This document shows, in pieces, positions 14,242 through 42,407 of a stretch of DNA of 64,000 nt (within the stretch, counting starts at the first letter, position 1; the number at the start of each line of letters is the position of its first letter). This DNA comes from Dermatophilaceae bacterium (GTDB lineage: Bacteria; Actinomycetota; Actinomycetes; Actinomycetales; Dermatophilaceae), in NCBI GenBank assembly GCA_039812545.1, contig JBDIAR010000001.1:1946-65945 (forward strand). The letters run 5' to 3'. Made by a program: the position numbers and the translations under genes. A model generated the notes under the pieces. It searched no databases, was not told the origin of the DNA, and saw nothing but the letters and a program-made list of their open reading frames with translations.

Positions 14242-14283
14242 ACCCCCGAGCCTAAACCGAAACCCCGTCCCGCCAGGTATGCC

Positions 14284-14343
14284 GTCAGGACAGTTGGTCA
14301 GGACAGTTGGTCAGGACAGTCGTCAGGTATGCCGTCAGGACAG
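14284..14343. repeat. Short tandem repeat GTCAGGACAG (4 copies, 13-bp period for three of them) bracketed by a 20-bp direct repeat CAGGTATGCCGTCAGGACAG
   Basis: GTCAGGACAG at 14284, 14297, 14310 and 14334. CAGGTATGCCGTCAGGACAG at 14274-14293 and 14324-14343. Confidence 0.85.
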
Positions 14344-23672: not shown

Positions 23673-25313
23673 ATGACCCCGGCCGTTCCCGATCTCCCCA
23701 CCCGCGTCCCCGATGCCGCCGGCCCCGATCCCGCCGGCCCCGCAGCCGACGAACCAACCGAACCCGTCGTCATCGGCGAACACCCCCTGCGGGTCGAGGA
23801 CGTCGTCCGGGTCGCTCGTCCCGGACCCCGCCCGCCCCGGATCTCGATCGCCGAACCCGCGCTGGCCCGGATCGCCGCCGCCCGCGACATCGTCGACGCC
23901 CTCGCCGACGACGTCGCACCCCATTACGGGGTATCGACCGGGTTCGGCGCCCTGGCCACCCGCCACATCCCCGTCGAGCTGCGGGCCCAACTTCAACGCT
24001 CCCTCGTGCGGTCGCACGCGGCCGGCAGCGGCCCCGAGGTCGAGACCGAGGTCGTGCGCGCCCTGATGGTGTTGCGCTTGGCCACCTTGACGACGGGACA
24101 CACCGGCGTGAGCGTCGAAACCGCTCAGACGTATGCCGCGATGTTGTCTGCGGGGATCACCCCGATCGTCCACGAATACGGCTCCCTCGGCTGCTCCGGC
24201 GACCTGGCGCCCTTGGCCCATTGCGCGCTCGCCGCCATCGGCGAGGGCCCGGTTCGGCTCGCCGACGGTCGCCGAGTCCCGGCGCAGGAGGCCCTGGCGG
24301 CATACGGCATACCGCCCGTCGTGCTGCGCGAGAAGGAGGGCCTGGCGCTGATCAACGGCACCGACGGCATGCTCGGCATGCTCTGCCTGGCGATCGCGGA
24401 CCTGACGATGTTGCTGCGGACCGCGGATCTCACGGCCGCGATGAGCGTGGAGGGCCTGCTCGGCACCGACCACGTCTTCGCCGCCGACCTGCAAGCCCTG
24501 CGGCCGCACCCCGGTCAGGCGGCCTCCGCCGCGAACCTGCGCCGACTCCTCGCCGACAGCCAGATCCGCGCCAGCCACGACACCCCGGACTGCCCGCGGG
24601 TTCAGGACGCGTACTCGCTGCGGTGCGCTCCGCAGGTCCACGGCGCCGCCCGGGACACCCTCGACCACGTCACGCGGGTGGCCGAGCGGGAACTCGCCTC
24701 GGCCATCGACAACCCGGTGGTCACCGCCGACGGACGCGTCGAGTCGAACGGCAATTTCCACGGTGCGCCGATCGGGTACGCCCTCGACTTCCTCGCAATC
24801 GTGGCCGCCGACGTCGCCTCGATGAGCGAACGCCGCACCGACCGGTTCCTCGACAAGGCCCGCAACGCCGGGCTCAACCCGTTCCTCGCCGACGACCCCG
24901 GCGTCGACAGCGGCCACATGATCGCCCAATACACCCAGGCCGCCATCGTCTCCGAACTCAAACGACTCGCGGTCCCGGCCAGCGTCGACTCCATCCCGAG
25001 TTCGGCGATGCAGGAGGACCACGTCTCGATGGGCTGGTCGGCCGGCCGCAAGCTGCGCCGCTCGATCGACGGGCTCACCCGCGTCATCGCCGTCGAACTG
25101 CTCACCGCGGCACGTGGCATCGCGTTGCGGGCGCCGCTGCACCCCGCCCCGGCCCACGGCGCCGTCATCGACGCCCTGCGCGAGCGACTCCCCGACGCCG
25201 CACGCCCCGGCACCGACCGGTTCCTCGCCCCCGAGATCGAAGCCGCCGTGGCCCTGGTCGGCGACGGCGGCGCGCTGGCGGCGGCGGAGTCCGTCATCGG
25301 CCACCTGGAGTGA
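23673..25313 (+). CDS. hutH: Histidine ammonia-lyase
   Basis: YGVSTGFGALA and GSLGCSGDLAPLAH (MIO tripeptide position, here Cys-Ser-Gly at 24192-24200), plus NGNFHGAP and QEDHVSMG. Confidence 0.9.
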   Translation: MTPAVPDLPTRVPDAAGPDPAGPAADEPTEPVVIGEHPLRVEDVVRVARPGPRPPRISIAEPALARIAAARDIVDALADDVAPHYGVSTGFGALATRHIPVELRAQLQRSLVRSHAAGSGPEVETEVVRALMVLRLATLTTGHTGVSVETAQTYAAMLSAGITPIVHEYGSLGCSGDLAPLAHCALAAIGEGPVRLADGRRVPAQEALAAYGIPPVVLREKEGLALINGTDGMLGMLCLAIADLTMLLRTADLTAAMSVEGLLGTDHVFAADLQALRPHPGQAASAANLRRLLADSQIRASHDTPDCPRVQDAYSLRCAPQVHGAARDTLDHVTRVAERELASAIDNPVVTADGRVESNGNFHGAPIGYALDFLAIVAADVASMSERRTDRFLDKARNAGLNPFLADDPGVDSGHMIAQYTQAAIVSELKRLAVPASVDSIPSSAMQEDHVSMGWSAGRKLRRSIDGLTRVIAVELLTAARGIALRAPLHPAPAHGAVIDALRERLPDAARPGTDRFLAPEIEAAVALVGDGGALAAAESVIGHLE

Positions 25314-37695: not shown

Positions 37696-38061
37696 ATGAA
37701 GCTGAAAGTGACCGTCAACGGGACGACGTACGACGTCGACGTGGAGGTCGAAGAGGAGAAGATCACCCCGATCGCCCCGATCATCATCGGTGGCGGAGCG
37801 GTGGGACCGGTCATCCCGGCGACGGCCAAGGCGGCGGGTTCGACCTCGTCCGGTCTGCGGGCACCCATCGCCGGTACCGTCCTGCGGATCAACGTGACCG
37901 AGGGCCAGGAGGTCAAGGCCGGCGACACCGTCGTGGTGCTCGAGGCCATGAAGATGGAGACCGAGATCACGGCCAACATGGATGCCACCGTCGCGCACAT
38001 TCTGGTCGCCGAGGGTGAAGCCGTGATGGCGGGCCAGGACGTCGTCGAGTGGGCCGAGTGA
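37696..38061 (+). CDS. Transcarboxylase 1.3S biotin carboxyl carrier subunit
   Basis: MKLKVTVNGTTYDVDVEVEE... N-terminus. Biotinylation motif VLEAMKMETEI. Confidence 0.9.
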   Translation: MKLKVTVNGTTYDVDVEVEEEKITPIAPIIIGGGAVGPVIPATAKAAGSTSSGLRAPIAGTVLRINVTEGQEVKAGDTVVVLEAMKMETEITANMDATVAHILVAEGEAVMAGQDVVEWAE

Positions 38062-38098
38062 GCGCAGCGTCGGCGACGATCTGACGTCCCCACGTGAG

Positions 38099-38136
38099 CC
38101 GGAGGGGGCGACCATCTCGATGGTCGCCCCCTCCGG
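38099..38136. terminator. 17-bp perfect GC-rich hairpin after the transcarboxylase operon
   Basis: CCGGAGGGGGCGACCAT, loop ctcg, ATGGTCGCCCCCTCCGG. Confidence 0.65.
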
Positions 38137-38161
38137 CATGTCCGAGCAGCCGGGTGTCGTT

Positions 38162-38276
38162 GGTCTGCCGCGTGAGATTGGTATACCGCGGGTGATGGGT
38201 ATGCCGGGTGCTGCGGGTATGCCGCGTGCTGCTGGCATTCCGAGTGGTGGGTATGCCGGGTATGCCGGGCCTGTCG
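38162..38276. repeat. Intergenic tandem array of the 9-mer GGTATGCCG and variants (8 units; 18-bp period, then 9-bp)
   Basis: Units start at 38162, 38180, 38198, 38216, 38234, 38250, 38259 and 38268: GGTCTGCCG, GGTATACCG, GGTATGCCG x4, GGCATTCCG, GGCCTGTCG. Confidence 0.85.
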
Positions 38277-38280
38277 GCCC

Positions 38281-40461
38281 TTAGGGCACGGTCACCTTGT
38301 GCCGCAGCGTCGAGACCAGGCCGTCCGAATCGGTCACGGTCAGCGTGACGACATACTCGCCGGGCGCGCGATAGGTGTGGCTGATCGACGGTGTCGGGCC
38401 GGGGGCGGGCGCCGTGCTGTCGTCGCCGAAATCCCACGCGTACGAGGCCACCGTGACCGGCGCGATGACCGTGCTGGCCGCCGCGTCCAAGGTCACGACG
38501 GATCCCGCCGACGTCGCCGTCACGGCCGCGCGGGGTGCCTTCGGGTTGACCCGGATCACGGCCGTGGTCGCGCTGACCCCCAGGTCGTCGGTCACCGTGA
38601 GCGTGACACCGTGGATCTGCTCGTCGGCATAGGTATGCGACACCTTGTCCGGAGTCGTGGTGACGATCGTGTTGGGATTGTCGCCACCTTCGGCCGGAGC
38701 ATTCGCATCCCCGAAACTCCAGGCATACGAGACGATCTTGCCGAGCTTGGCGGTGGACCAGGACGGGTCGAAGGTGACCTGGCCGGCCACCTCGCCGATG
38801 ACGGCGTCGAAATCGGGGATCGGTGGGATGGCCTTGACGGTCACCGGCAGCGTCGTGCGCGAGCTGTTCCCCTTGGCGTCGGTGACGACGAGGGTGACGG
38901 TGTAGTTGCCGTCCTTGGCGTACCCGTGCCGGGTGGTGGCCGTCTTGGTCCGTGCCGTCGTCCCGTCGCCGAACTCCCAGTCGAACGTGGCCAAGTCGCC
39001 GTCAAGGTCCTTGGTCGCCTTGGCGTCGAAGGCCACCGATAGTCCGGTGCTCGTGTCGGCCTGCAGCGCCGCCACCGGTGCCCCGTCGACGACCACGACC
39101 ATCCGTTGGGTCTGGTAGTTGCCCTGCTTGTCGTATGCCGTGAGCGAGACCGTGTAGCTGCCCGGGGACGCGTACCTGTGGACGGCGACCGGCTTGGAGT
39201 ACCAGTGCAGTTCCTTGCCGTCGCCGAAGTTCCACTCGTAGGACACCAGGGCGGAGGCGGTGGACCGGGAGGCCGAGGCGTCGAAGGAGGCGTCGCCCGC
39301 GGCGACCTTGGCCGTGAAGCCGGTGCGAACCGGCGAGCCGAGGATGGGGCCGGGCTGCACGGTCGAGCCGGGCGTCGGCCCGGTGGTCACCTTCGTCGGC
39401 CTGGGGCCGCTGGTCGAACCGGAGGTGATGGTCGTCTTCGGCGGTGGCGTGGCCTTGGGCGGCGCGGCCGATGTCGTGGACCCTGAGTTGATGATCGGGC
39501 CGATGACATTGGGGCCGATGGTCCCGGTGTCGCGGTAGGTGGCCGCCCACATCAACACATCGCCCACGTAGACCCGAGACGGGTTGTACCGCATGATCGC
39601 CGCCGAGATATTGGCCGCGTTGGACAGGTCTCCGCCGGTGTCGCAGAGGAAGACCCCGGCCGTGACGGCGGCGTCGTACACATTGTTCGGGTCCGCCACG
39701 CCGTCGCCGTTGCCGTCCTCGCCGAACTGGCGCCAGGTGGACGGAAGGAACTGCATGGGGCCGACGGCCCGGTCGAACTGGGTGTCCCCGTCCAGCGCTC
39801 CGCCGTCGGTGTCCCGGATGACCGCGGTCCCCGGAGTGGTCCCGTCCAGCCGGGGCCCGAGGATCACTCCCTTGGTCTTTCCGGTCGCATCGACGGCGCC
39901 GCCGTAGGCGTGGCCCGACTCGATCTTGCCGATGCCGGCGAGCAGCCACCACGGCAGATTGCATTGGGGACGCAGGGTGCGCAACCGGGTCTGCGCCGAG
40001 GTGTATGCCGTCATCAGGCCGGTGGGAACCGTGGCGGCCGCCGACCGGGTGGGGGCGATCTTGCCGTCCAGCGCCAGCTTGGCCATCTCCCCGGCCTGTT
40101 TCGCGTCGACCGGGGTGCTCACCATCCGACCGTCGAGGGCCACGAGGCTGTGGCCGATCGCGGCGGTGACGCCCTGGCCCGGAGCCGATCCGTCGACCAC
40201 GAGCCCGCCGGGTGCCGTCGTGGTGTCCGGCCGGGGCTGGGCCGGTGCGCCGAGGCTGGCTCCGACGAGCATCAGGCTCGCCATCCCGGTGCCGGCGATC
40301 GCATTGCGCAACCCGGTGCGGGCACCCGCCCGAGCCTCGGCGATCCGGCGCAACTGCCGGCCACCGGACCGAACAGCCTCTGTCCGAACCGGTTCGGCGC
40401 GCACTCCACCGCGCGGCGCCATCGTGGGCTGCGGTTGGCGGTGCGGCTGTTTCGGCGTCAT
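38281..40461 (-). CDS. Secreted lytic murein transglycosylase (SLT_2/MltB-like) fused to four PKD domains
   Basis: N-terminal signal/anchor. WWLLAGIGKIESGHA (catalytic Glu), GPMQFLPSTW. Four repeats each carry W/F-x-F-GDG (YEWNFGDG, FDWEFGDG, YAWSFGDA, YAWDFGDD). Confidence 0.85.
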   Translation of the reverse strand: MTPKQPHRQPQPTMAPRGGVRAEPVRTEAVRSGGRQLRRIAEARAGARTGLRNAIAGTGMASLMLVGASLGAPAQPRPDTTTAPGGLVVDGSAPGQGVTAAIGHSLVALDGRMVSTPVDAKQAGEMAKLALDGKIAPTRSAAATVPTGLMTAYTSAQTRLRTLRPQCNLPWWLLAGIGKIESGHAYGGAVDATGKTKGVILGPRLDGTTPGTAVIRDTDGGALDGDTQFDRAVGPMQFLPSTWRQFGEDGNGDGVADPNNVYDAAVTAGVFLCDTGGDLSNAANISAAIMRYNPSRVYVGDVLMWAATYRDTGTIGPNVIGPIINSGSTTSAAPPKATPPPKTTITSGSTSGPRPTKVTTGPTPGSTVQPGPILGSPVRTGFTAKVAAGDASFDASASRSTASALVSYEWNFGDGKELHWYSKPVAVHRYASPGSYTVSLTAYDKQGNYQTQRMVVVVDGAPVAALQADTSTGLSVAFDAKATKDLDGDLATFDWEFGDGTTARTKTATTRHGYAKDGNYTVTLVVTDAKGNSSRTTLPVTVKAIPPIPDFDAVIGEVAGQVTFDPSWSTAKLGKIVSYAWSFGDANAPAEGGDNPNTIVTTTPDKVSHTYADEQIHGVTLTVTDDLGVSATTAVIRVNPKAPRAAVTATSAGSVVTLDAAASTVIAPVTVASYAWDFGDDSTAPAPGPTPSISHTYRAPGEYVVTLTVTDSDGLVSTLRHKVTVP

Positions 40462-42335: not shown

Positions 42336-42407
42336 CAGGTCAAGCGGTGACAACAGGTCGAGCGCTGACAACAGGTCAAGCGGTGACAACAGGTCAAGCG
42401 GTGACGG
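42336..42407. repeat. Four tandem 18-bp repeats CAGGTCAAGCGGTGACAA in a divergent promoter region
   Basis: Copies at 42336, 42354 (2 mismatches), 42372 (identical to copy 1) and 42390 (last 2 nt differ). Confidence 0.9.

What the first reader, a model, noticed from the sequence alone, without database searches (positions are those of the whole stretch)
38162..38276. Intergenic tandem array built from the hyper-abundant word
Eight units of GGTATGCCG or close variants sit between the terminator hairpin of the transcarboxylase operon (38099-38136) and the stop of the convergent transglycosylase gene (38281). The units are GGTCTGCCG, GGTATACCG, GGTATGCCG x4, GGCATTCCG and GGCCTGTCG. The first five are spaced at 18 bp and the last three at 9 bp.

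This is the only place in the window where the word is tandemly amplified and clearly non-coding. It could be a high-affinity cluster for whatever recognises the word, or the product of slippage or conversion that generates it.

Read in frame from ATG 38138, it would give a 48-aa peptide with G-[LIM]-P-x-x-x repeats (MSEQPGVVGLPREIGIPRVMGMPGAAGMPRAAGIPSGG...). However, there is no RBS, and the ATG abuts the terminator stem.
Basis: seen in the sequence. Interest (0 to 1): 0.6.

Follow-up and report, generated by a model that had tools for sequence, protein, structure and literature searches.

The report
Young variable repeat built on abundant word
The 115-base array is a young, non-coding, copy-number-variable tandem repeat that grew from one copy of an 8-base word written thousands of times through this actinobacterial genome; it is an ordinary slippage product, but a handy natural multi-copy probe for whatever reads that word.

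Summary
It has five 18-bp units, then two perfect 9-bp units. The eighth "unit" is doubtful.

It fills the whole gap between a conserved 19-bp-stem hairpin (38098-38137) and the stop of the convergent SLT/PKD gene (38281).

- **The word.** The core, GTATGCCG, occurs 3,942 times in this 3.3-Mb, 70% GC Dermatophilaceae-like genome. It is also hyper-abundant in about half of the sister genera.
- **Copy-number variation.** Fourteen copies of this locus exist in independent assemblies of near-identical strains. Six have two 9-bp units and eight have one. This is the only indel in 1.5-4.2 kb alignments.
- **Other arrays.** Two of three other word arrays checked also differ by whole units.
- **Age.** A sister species keeps the hairpin and both genes. 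Its stop-to-hairpin gap is only about 35 bp, with no word and no array.
- **Coding.** The 48-codon ORF is not coding: GC3 is 0.56 against 0.90 in genes, the repeat frame shifts, and there is no homologue.

Best reading: a lineage-specific minisatellite seeded on the word, with no dedicated function. A role as a multi-site target for the unknown reader of the word is not excluded.

The parts
37696..38061 (+). Last gene of the transcarboxylase-like operon: the biotinyl (1.3S-type) carrier subunit. It forms the left flank of the spacer.
   Evidence: Pfam Biotin_lipoyl, E = 3e-15. The upstream genes match Carboxyl_trans (E = 2.7e-192) and PYC_OADA.
38098..38137 (.). Perfect 19-nt inverted repeat with 2 nt between the arms. 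It is a likely bidirectional, I-shaped terminator shared by the convergent genes and has no T-run.
   Evidence: the repeat finder I1. Fold is -43.4 and -42.9 kcal/mol on the two strands, z = -7.6 and -6.6. The stem is conserved in the sister species loci L106 and L116. No consensus terminator with a T-run was found.
38144..38161 (+). Probable degenerate 'zeroth' 18-bp unit (GAGCAGCCG GGTGTCGTT). With it, the array fills the whole hairpin-to-stop gap.
   Evidence: The 18-bp register found by the repeat finder starts at 38149-38153. Unit alignment.
38162..38249 (+). Five units of 18 bp (the last is 16 bp), each made of word plus spacer. The words are GGTCTGCCG, GGTATACCG, GGTATGCCG, GGTATGCCG and GGCATTCCG. 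This is the older, partly decayed part of the array.
   Evidence: Word columns show 4/45 mismatches against 17/45 in spacer columns. SNPs in L098 and L105 fall here.
38250..38267 (+). Two perfect 9-bp units, GGTATGCCG GGTATGCCG. One unit is present or absent among strains (the VNTR core).
   Evidence: Alignments. The long allele is in the window, L098, L099, L100, L102 and L105. The short allele is in L081-L085, L101, L103 and L104. It is the only gap in 1.5-4.2 kb alignments.
38268..38281 (.). Small hairpin GGGCC-TGTC-GGCCC abutting the stop codon.
   Evidence: Sequence. It is paired in both strand folds.
38281..40461 (-). Convergent gene for a 726-aa SLT_2 lytic transglycosylase domain plus four PKD domains. 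If the hairpin terminates this gene, the array lies in its 3' untranslated stretch.
   Evidence: Pfam PKD_4 (E = 1.4e-62) and SLT_2 (E = 5.7e-7). The same gene and synteny occur in 13 Logan contigs.
38138..38284 (+). The 48-codon ORF through the array (MSEQPGVVGLPREIGIPRVMGMPGAAGMPRAAGIPSGGYAGYAGPVGP). Rejected as a gene.
   Evidence: GC3 is 0.56 against a mean of 0.90 in genes, and only 0.03% of 48-codon gene windows are at or below 0.60. The word is read as G-M-P in the early units and G-Y-A in the last ones, a frame change. No homologue was found. It is not called as a gene in any Logan contig. The ATG lies in the hairpin stem.

Best explanation
**What it is.** The array is a young, lineage-specific, non-coding minisatellite (VNTR). 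I do not think it is needed for anything.

**How it arose (inferred).**
1. One copy of the genome-wide hyper-abundant word GTATGCCG, with about 9-10 bp of neighbouring sequence, arose in the short dispensable gap between the stop of the SLT/PKD gene and the shared terminator hairpin.
2. Slipped-strand mispairing or unequal exchange between direct copies duplicated an 18-bp unit about five times.
3. These units then decayed. The spacer halves decayed faster than the word halves.
4. More recently, the bare 9-bp word unit at the stop-proximal end duplicated. That last step is still polymorphic in natural populations.

**What is shown.** The anatomy; the unit-scale copy-number polymorphism here and at two other word arrays; absence from a sister species with conserved flanks; non-coding status.

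**What is inferred.** The slippage mechanism itself; the order of events; and that the better preservation of word columns reflects the same genome-wide force that maintains the word everywhere. That force is uptake-sequence-like drive or selection, and its reader is unknown.
For: 1. **Regular structure.** Head-to-tail units at 18, 18, 18, 18, 16, 9, 9 bp with related spacers.
2. **Copy-number polymorphism.** Fourteen copies of the locus are otherwise 100% identical in the spacer, apart from two SNPs. Six carry two 9-bp units and eight carry one. By accession blocks they come from about six studies. The same SLT/PKD protein variant (P0007) occurs with both alleles. The indel is the only gap in each alignment.
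3. **General behaviour of word arrays.** The gpmA/phoU array on contig C65 has 4 x 16 bp here against 2 x in L107-L109. The C232 array lacks one 13-bp unit in L113. The C39 array is unchanged.
4. **Youth.** In the sister species (SLT/PKD 82% aa identical, L116; 1.3S region 88% nt identical, L106) the hairpin is conserved. The stop-to-hairpin gap is about 35 bp with no word. That species still carries the word at about 1.1 per kb.
5. **Background of tandem repeats.** The genome has 465 short-period tandem arrays, so duplication of short units is common here. Of these, 25 carry the word.
6. **Not a copy of a larger element.** The spacer is unique in the genome. There is no Rfam match in the array, no significant RNA fold (z = -1.4 and -0.4) and no promoter consensus.
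7. **Non-coding**.
Against: - Word-bearing arrays are about 2.7-fold more frequent than word density predicts (25 against 9.3 expected, Poisson p = 1e-5). The excess is 4-fold for arrays of 3.5 or more copies. Part of this is circular, because shared words help TRF call an array.
- Within the array, word columns are clearly better kept than spacer columns (p = 0.002). Something beyond neutral decay therefore acts on the words.
The polymorphism rests on assemblies.
- Only one sister-species contig shows the empty site.
Confidence: 0.74

Rival explanations
1. The array is a functional multi-site target. Eight same-strand copies would make a high-avidity site for the unknown protein or machinery that reads GTATGCCG. 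That reader could be an uptake receptor, a recombination or repair factor, or a nucleoid protein. Alleles with more copies would then be favoured or driven.
For: - The word behaves like a read signal. It has 3,942 copies, is the commonest 8-mer, occurs in all frames on both strands, and has no conserved flanks.
- It is hyper-abundant in about 8 of 19 genera of the family and sits at non-orthologous positions between genera.
- Word columns in the array are better conserved than spacers.
- Word arrays are enriched 2.7-4-fold.
- Arrays also exist in three other word-rich genera.
- Words are 1.3-1.9-fold enriched in the first 100 bp after stop codons.
Against: - The array is absent from the sister species, although that species has the word.
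- It is copy-number variable and half its units are degenerate. One SNP moves a unit further from the word.
- Genome-wide, same-strand word pairs are depleted to 0.42-0.55 of expectation at 60-300 bp, while opposite-strand pairs are at expectation. Forty control 7-mers show nothing similar. A second same-strand copy nearby therefore seems to add little or to be disfavoured.
- Arrays sit at unrelated loci with periods of 7-20 bp.
- There is no promoter or regulated gene to act on, because the flanking genes are convergent.
Confidence: 0.15
2. The array acts as RNA. It would be a repeated CGGCAUACC motif in the 3' untranslated region of the SLT/PKD mRNA, affecting stability, termination or binding of an RNA-binding protein.
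For: It lies between the stop codon and the only strong hairpin, so it is probably transcribed with the SLT/PKD gene. A small hairpin abuts the stop.
Against: - There is no significant structure on either strand (z = -1.4 and -0.4) and no Rfam family in the array.
- It is absent from the sister species and variable in length.
- The word shows no sense/antisense preference in genes genome-wide (1,364 against 1,273), which argues against an RNA-level signal.
Confidence: 0.05
3. The array encodes a small repeat protein of 48-54 aa with G-[LIM]-P repeats, translated from ATG 38138 or 38120.
For: The frame is open for 48-54 codons. The 9-bp indel keeps the frame.
Against: - GC3 is 0.56 against 0.90 +/- 0.05 in genes, lower than 99.97% of gene windows. 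Many codons used have 1-7% usage (ATA, ATT, GCT, CGT, CCT, GTT).
- The repeat is read in two different frames within the ORF.
- Both ATGs lie in or at the hairpin stem, with no ribosome-binding site.
- No homologue was found among 5.8 billion clusters, and the ORF itself is not in the collection.
- It is never called as a gene, and the whole region is absent from the sister species.
Confidence: 0.02
4. The array is an artefact, caused by leftover Illumina adapter (the P7 adapter contains CGTATGCCG) or by mis-assembly of a repeat.
For: The literal word search in papers returns mostly adapter sequences. Several Logan contigs end in or near word arrays.
Against: - There is no adapter-like flank around the 3,925 words aligned.
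- The same array was assembled independently in 13 Logan contigs from several studies.
- The word is embedded in reading frames across several genera.
Confidence: 0.01

Closest known systems
Bacterial minisatellites / VNTR loci formed by slipped-strand mispairing (for example the MIRU-VNTR type loci of mycobacteria; from my own knowledge)
   Same: - Head-to-tail short units lie in an intergenic spacer.
- Whole-unit copy-number differences occur between otherwise near-identical strains.
- Older units are decayed and a young perfect pair is present.
- The array is absent from a related species.
   Different: - The unit is built on the most abundant 8-mer of the genome rather than on an arbitrary sequence or a mobile-element remnant.
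- Periods are short (9 and 18 bp), and the word half is better conserved than the spacer half.
DNA uptake enhancing sequences: DUS of Neisseriaceae and USS of Pasteurellaceae (PMC3630211; bioRxiv 10.1101/2025.10.24.684340)
   Same: This comparison concerns the word, not the array.
- Density is about 1.2 copies per kb.
- It occurs on both strands, in genes in all frames and in spacers.
- Frame choice is biased.
- It is shared by related genera but not all of them.
- It is enriched just after genes.
   Different: - Known intergenic DUES typically form inverted pairs inside terminators (10.1101/2025.10.24.684340). Here the copies are direct, lie beside the hairpin and not in it, and close opposite-strand pairs are not enriched.
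- No uptake bias, competence or receptor is known for this family. ComEC is present in word-rich and word-poor genomes alike.
- The same-strand repulsion seen here is not a described DUES property, to my knowledge.
Chi-type recombination hotspots
   Same: It is a short, non-palindromic, over-represented word. Its same-strand copies behave as if each serves one strand, being evenly spread per strand.
   Different: - There is no strand skew along contigs: the adjacent same-orientation fraction is 0.41, not above 0.5.
- RecC is absent from this genome and from most word-rich relatives. AdnAB was not tested.
- Density is several-fold higher than E. coli Chi.
Iterons of plasmid or chromosomal replication origins
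   Same: There are five to six direct repeats with a regular period of about 18 bp.
   Different: - The array lies between convergent metabolic and cell-wall genes, with no replication-initiator gene beside it.
- The units are degenerate and vary between strains.
- It is absent from the sister species.

Membership tests
Minisatellite / VNTR (slippage-generated tandem repeat) | Head-to-tail copies of a short unit | tested here: met
   TRF finds period 18 (3.6-3.8 copies) and period 9 (2.3 copies, 100% matches). The repeat finder finds families with spacing 18, 18, 18.
Minisatellite / VNTR (slippage-generated tandem repeat) | Whole-unit copy-number differences between closely related strains | tested here: met
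   One or two copies of the 9-bp unit occur across 14 assemblies that are otherwise identical in the spacer. This comes from assemblies only, because raw reads were not available.
Minisatellite / VNTR (slippage-generated tandem repeat) | Not conserved as a functional element across species | tested here: met
   Sister-species locus L116 has about 35 bp between stop and conserved hairpin, with no word and no array.
DNA uptake sequences (DUS/USS), for the word the array is built from | Hyper-abundant short word (~1 per kb) on both strands, in genes and spacers | tested here: met
   There are 3,942 copies in 3.31 Mb. All six frame/orientation classes are occupied, and about one third lie outside my crude gene set.
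DNA uptake sequences (DUS/USS), for the word the array is built from | Shared, with variation, among related genera | tested here: met
   GGTATGCCG has 366-1,268 copies in 7 other genera of the family, 113 in one more, and background counts (6-60) in the rest of the family and in 12 other families of the order.
DNA uptake sequences (DUS/USS), for the word the array is built from | Intergenic copies as inverted pairs forming terminators | tested here: not met
   All copies in the array are direct and lie beside the hairpin. Genome-wide, opposite-strand pairs closer than 60 bp are at 0.7-0.9 of expectation.
DNA uptake sequences (DUS/USS), for the word the array is built from | Preferential uptake of word-bearing DNA by competent cells, through a specific receptor | not testable with these tools
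   ComEC (PF03772) is present in all 31 genomes, so it is permissive but does not discriminate. No receptor candidate was identified.
Chi sites | Orientation skew with replication and a RecBCD/AddAB-type reader | tested here: not met
   Neighbouring words alternate: the same-orientation fraction is 0.41. RecC (PF04257) is absent from G000 and from 6 of 8 word-rich relatives. AdnAB was not tested.
REP / MITE-type dispersed elements | Conserved element longer than the core, usually palindromic, repeated as a unit | tested here: not met
   There is no conservation outside the 8-mer in 3,925 aligned copies. The 219-bp spacer has no second copy in the genome.
Small repeat protein gene | Genome-typical codon usage, consistent repeat frame, homologues | tested here: not met
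   GC3 is 0.56 against 0.90. The frame changes between units. No homologue was found.
Structured RNA family | Match to a curated family or a fold better than shuffles | tested here: not met
   All Rfam hits below E = 1 fall on the hairpin, none in the array, and all are below gathering score. Fold z-scores are -1.4 and -0.4.

The most novel reading that the evidence does not exclude
Word arrays such as this one may be driven expansions. If GTATGCCG is a self-DNA signal read by an uptake or recombination machinery, then an allele with extra tandem copies is transmitted or repaired preferentially. Slippage variants with more words would then spread in dispensable DNA, as a 'selfish VNTR' of an uptake-like signal. 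On this reading, two observations are the footprint of that drive: the 2.7-4-fold excess of word-bearing arrays, and the selective preservation of word columns inside them.
Probability: 0.12. Interest if true: 0.7.

Novelty: new member of a known kind. Interest (0 to 1): 0.36.

Why it matters
By itself the array is an ordinary minisatellite with no sign of a dedicated function. Its value is indirect.

- **It settles a question about the word.** One could ask whether the hyper-abundant Dermatophilaceae word forms conserved 'super-sites'. At this locus it does not: the cluster is young, variable and dispensable.
- **It is a strain-typing marker.** It gives a ready marker (one or two 9-bp units) for wastewater populations of this organism.
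- **It is a natural probe.** It offers a 115-bp fragment carrying four perfect and three or four near-perfect same-strand words. That fragment could be used in pull-down, EMSA or uptake assays aimed at the unknown reader of the word.
- **It contrasts with the genome-wide spacing rule.** Same-strand words avoid each other at 60-500 bp, yet pile up at under 20 bp only through tandem duplication. This constrains models of how the word is read: strand-specifically, with diminishing returns.

Tried and rejected
- **Coding ORF:** rejected on codon usage, frame inconsistency, lack of homologues and absence from gene calls.
- **Structured RNA or known RNA family:** nothing found in the array.
- **Promoter or canonical terminator motifs:** none found.
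- **Part of a larger dispersed element:** the spacer is unique in the genome.
- **Adapter contamination:** rejected.
- **Chi/RecBCD reading of the word:** there is no skew and RecC is absent.
- **ComEC as a discriminating competence marker:** present everywhere, so uninformative.
- **Synteny in other genera:** the SLT/PKD gene is not next to the transcarboxylase operon in any of 80 loci from other genera. The spacer could only be compared within the species and with one sister species.
- **JGI metagenome scan with a 23-mer from the flank:** no match.
- **Literal literature search for the word:** swamped by Illumina adapter sequences. A search combining 'uptake sequence' with names of genera of the family found no report.
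- **Structure prediction:** not used, as there was no credible protein.

Full report
**1. What is there**

Start-to-start spacing is 18, 18, 18, 18, 16, 9, 9 bp.
- TRF reports a period-18 array (38160-38258, 74-76% matches) and a perfect period-9 array (38249-38269).
- The repeat finder places the 18-bp register as far left as 38149-38153. A degenerate 'zeroth' unit at 38144 is therefore likely, and the array fills the whole gap between hairpin and stop codon.
- The eighth unit (GGCCTGTCG) matches the word at only 6 of 9 positions. It belongs to a small GGGCC-TGTC-GGCCC hairpin that abuts the stop.

The flanks are as described.
- On the plus strand lies a PYC_OADA / Carboxyl_trans / biotinyl-carrier operon ending at 38061.
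- On the minus strand lies a 726-aa SLT_2 + four-PKD protein, with its stop at 38281.
- Between them sits a perfect 19-nt inverted repeat (38098-38137; about -43 kcal/mol on either strand, z about -7). It has no T-run.

**2. The word**

- GGTATGCCG occurs 43 times in the window against 0.34 expected.
- In the whole assembly (3.31 Mb, 69.7% GC, 271 contigs) the core GTATGCCG has 3,942 copies and is the commonest 8-mer.
- Nothing outside the 8-mer is conserved.
- Copies occupy every frame in both orientations. They prefer xxG-TAT-GCC-G in the sense strand and its mirror in the antisense strand.
- The 9-mer is hyper-abundant (366-1,268 copies) in seven other genera of the same family and intermediate (113 copies) in one more. 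It is at background (6-60 copies) in the other genera and in twelve other families of the order.
- The best matches of the carboxyltransferase are Dermatophilaceae MAGs, Austwickia, Mobilicoccus and Phycicoccus. Word-rich loci are activated-sludge Dermatophilaceae MAGs.
- In the orthologous carboxyltransferase gene, the words of different genera sit at different positions. The word is therefore still being written independently in each lineage.
- Earlier notes of this scan on other genomes describe the same word, liken it to uptake sequences, and found no published report. My own literature searches found none either.

**3. A genome-wide spacing rule that the array breaks**

- Neighbouring words alternate in orientation: the same-orientation fraction is 0.41 (1,347 of 3,284).
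- A pair-correlation analysis gives more detail. Same-strand pairs are depleted to 0.42-0.55 of expectation at 60-300 bp and recover only beyond about 1 kb. Opposite-strand pairs stay at expectation.
- Forty control 7-mers of equal abundance give same-strand fractions of 0.49-0.65. The word gives 0.32.
- Only below 60 bp are same-strand pairs not depleted (1.15 of expectation). That is where tandem arrays live.
- So a second same-strand copy a few hundred bases away is disfavoured. Very close same-strand copies arise by a different process, tandem duplication.

**4. Copy-number variation**

- The exact 1.3S protein and the five variants of the SLT/PKD protein (all at least 99% identical) are found on 13 Logan contigs that span the spacer. 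By accession blocks these come from about six studies.
- All are identical to the window across the spacer, apart from two SNPs inside the array and one 9-bp unit.
- The window, L098, L099, L100, L102 and L105 have GGGTATGCC twice. L081-L085, L101, L103 and L104 have it once.
- This is the only gap in alignments of 1.5-4.2 kb.
- The same protein variant (P0007) occurs with both alleles. The change has therefore recurred or recombined.

**5. Other word arrays behave the same way**

- The genome has about a dozen clear tandem clusters of the word, with periods of 8 to 20 bp.
- Between the convergent gpmA and phoU genes (contig C65) the architecture is hairpin - array - stop, as here. This genome has four perfect 16-bp units, while L107-L109 have two.
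- Upstream of a pirin gene (C232), one 13-bp unit is missing in L113.
- The C39 array is unchanged in the one comparison available.
- Five indel events were seen across all the strain comparisons. Three lie in word arrays, one is an 11-bp intergenic indel without a word, and one is a single base.
- Arrays of the word also exist in three other word-rich genera.

**6. The array is young**

- A sister species (SLT/PKD 82% identical in protein; 1.3S region 88% identical in DNA) is represented by L116 and L106, which come from one accession block.
- It keeps both genes and the hairpin stem.
- Its SLT/PKD stop is followed by only about 35 bp before the hairpin, with no word and no repeat.
- That species does carry the word at the usual density, 5 copies in 4.35 kb.
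- The 143-bp gap of the window's species is therefore an expansion that post-dates the split.
- In more distant genera the two genes are not neighbours.

**7. Is the word favoured in arrays?**

- The genome has 465 tandem arrays of period 7-30 bp with at least 2.8 copies. Periods of 9, 12, 15 and 18 bp dominate.
- Twenty-five arrays carry the word against 9.3 expected from word density (Poisson p = 1e-5). For arrays with at least 3.5 copies the figures are 14 against 3.5.
- Part of this excess is circular, because shared words help TRF score an array.
- Within this array, the word columns of the five 18-bp units show 4/45 departures from consensus against 17/45 for spacer columns (Fisher p = 0.002).
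- Words are also 1.3-1.9-fold enriched in the first 100 bp after stop codons.
- These are the only observations that point beyond neutral slippage. They fit the idea that the genome-wide force maintaining the word also acts on copies inside arrays.

**8. Not coding, not a known RNA, not a mobile element**

- The 48-codon ORF has GC3 of 0.56 against 0.90 +/- 0.05 in genes, and only 0.03% of gene windows are that low. It uses many very rare codons.
- It reads the word as G-M-P in the early units and G-Y-A in the late ones.
- It has no homologue and is not called as a gene in any assembly.
- Rfam matches below E = 1 all fall on the hairpin and below gathering scores.
- Neither strand of the array folds better than shuffles.
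- The spacer has no second copy in the genome.

**9. Reader of the word**

- There is no strand skew, and RecC is absent. Both argue against a RecBCD-type Chi.
- ComEC is present in all 31 genomes compared, so it does not discriminate.
- Known uptake sequences in spacers are typically inverted pairs inside terminators (bioRxiv 10.1101/2025.10.24.684340). Here the copies are direct and lie beside the hairpin.

**10. Verdict**

The array is best explained as a lineage-specific minisatellite seeded on the hyper-abundant word (confidence about 0.74). It has an older 18-bp phase and a recent 9-bp duplication that is still polymorphic. It lies in the probable 3' untranslated stretch of the SLT/PKD gene.

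A role as a multi-copy target of the word's reader is possible (about 0.15) but not supported by conservation. The interesting biology is the word itself and its same-strand spacing rule. The array is mainly useful as a marker and as a natural multi-word probe.

Noticed in passing
whole genome G000 (window included): Same-strand copies of GTATGCCG avoid each other. They are at 0.42-0.55 of expectation at 60-300 bp and recover beyond about 1 kb. Opposite-strand pairs are at expectation. Forty control 7-mers of equal abundance show no such effect. This suggests a strand-specific reader with diminishing returns, or instability of close direct copies.
   Followed up: partly
G000 contig C65:2297-2361 (between convergent gpmA and phoU): Four perfect 16-bp units, each with the word, lie next to a GC-rich hairpin. 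This is the same architecture as the array under study. Logan contigs L107-L109 have two units, and several contigs break here.
   Followed up: yes
G000 contig C232:2585-2630 (upstream of a pirin gene): A 12-13-bp-period word array lies in a 5' leader. One 13-bp unit is missing in L113, while L114 is identical to G000.
   Followed up: yes
window 14276-14334: A composite non-coding repeat. GGTATGCCGTCAGGACAG occurs at both ends of a 13-bp tandem repeat (GTCAGGACAGTTG x about 3), between two minus-strand genes.
   Followed up: no
window 24298-24313: Two abutting copies of the word (CGGCATACGGCATACC, period 7) lie inside a long ORF that the first-stage notes call hutH.
   Followed up: no
G000 contigs C158 (7.9 kb) and C161 (7.7 kb): These are the only stretches over 7 kb without the word. 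By motif and my own reading, C158 carries a copper P-type ATPase, a multicopper oxidase and a response regulator, and C161 carries narG/narH-like nitrate reductase genes. This is consistent with recently acquired DNA lacking the word. No family search was run.
   Followed up: partly
whole genome G000: The genome is unusually rich in short-period tandem repeats. It has 465 arrays of period 7-30 bp with at least 2.8 copies, dominated by periods 9, 12, 15 and 18. The window's 4 x 18 bp array at 42336-42405 is one of them.
   Followed up: no
whole genome G000, first 100 bp after stop codons: Word density is 1.3-1.9-fold above average just downstream of genes. The excess is strongest in the orientation in which the gene's sense strand reads GGCATAC.
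   Followed up: no
G013:C3:609948-609989 (locus L086/L090): A relative in another genus has a pure 7-bp-period run, GTATGCC repeated at least six times.
   Followed up: no
general: The Illumina P7 adapter contains CGTATGCCG. Literal text searches for the word therefore return adapter listings. Adapter trimmers with short minimum overlaps might clip genuine reads of these genomes at the word.
   Followed up: no
window 38281-40461: The lytic transglycosylase (SLT_2) fused to four PKD domains has close full-length relatives only in this species cluster and one sister species. Other hits cover either the SLT part (50-67% identity) or the PKD part alone.
   Followed up: no
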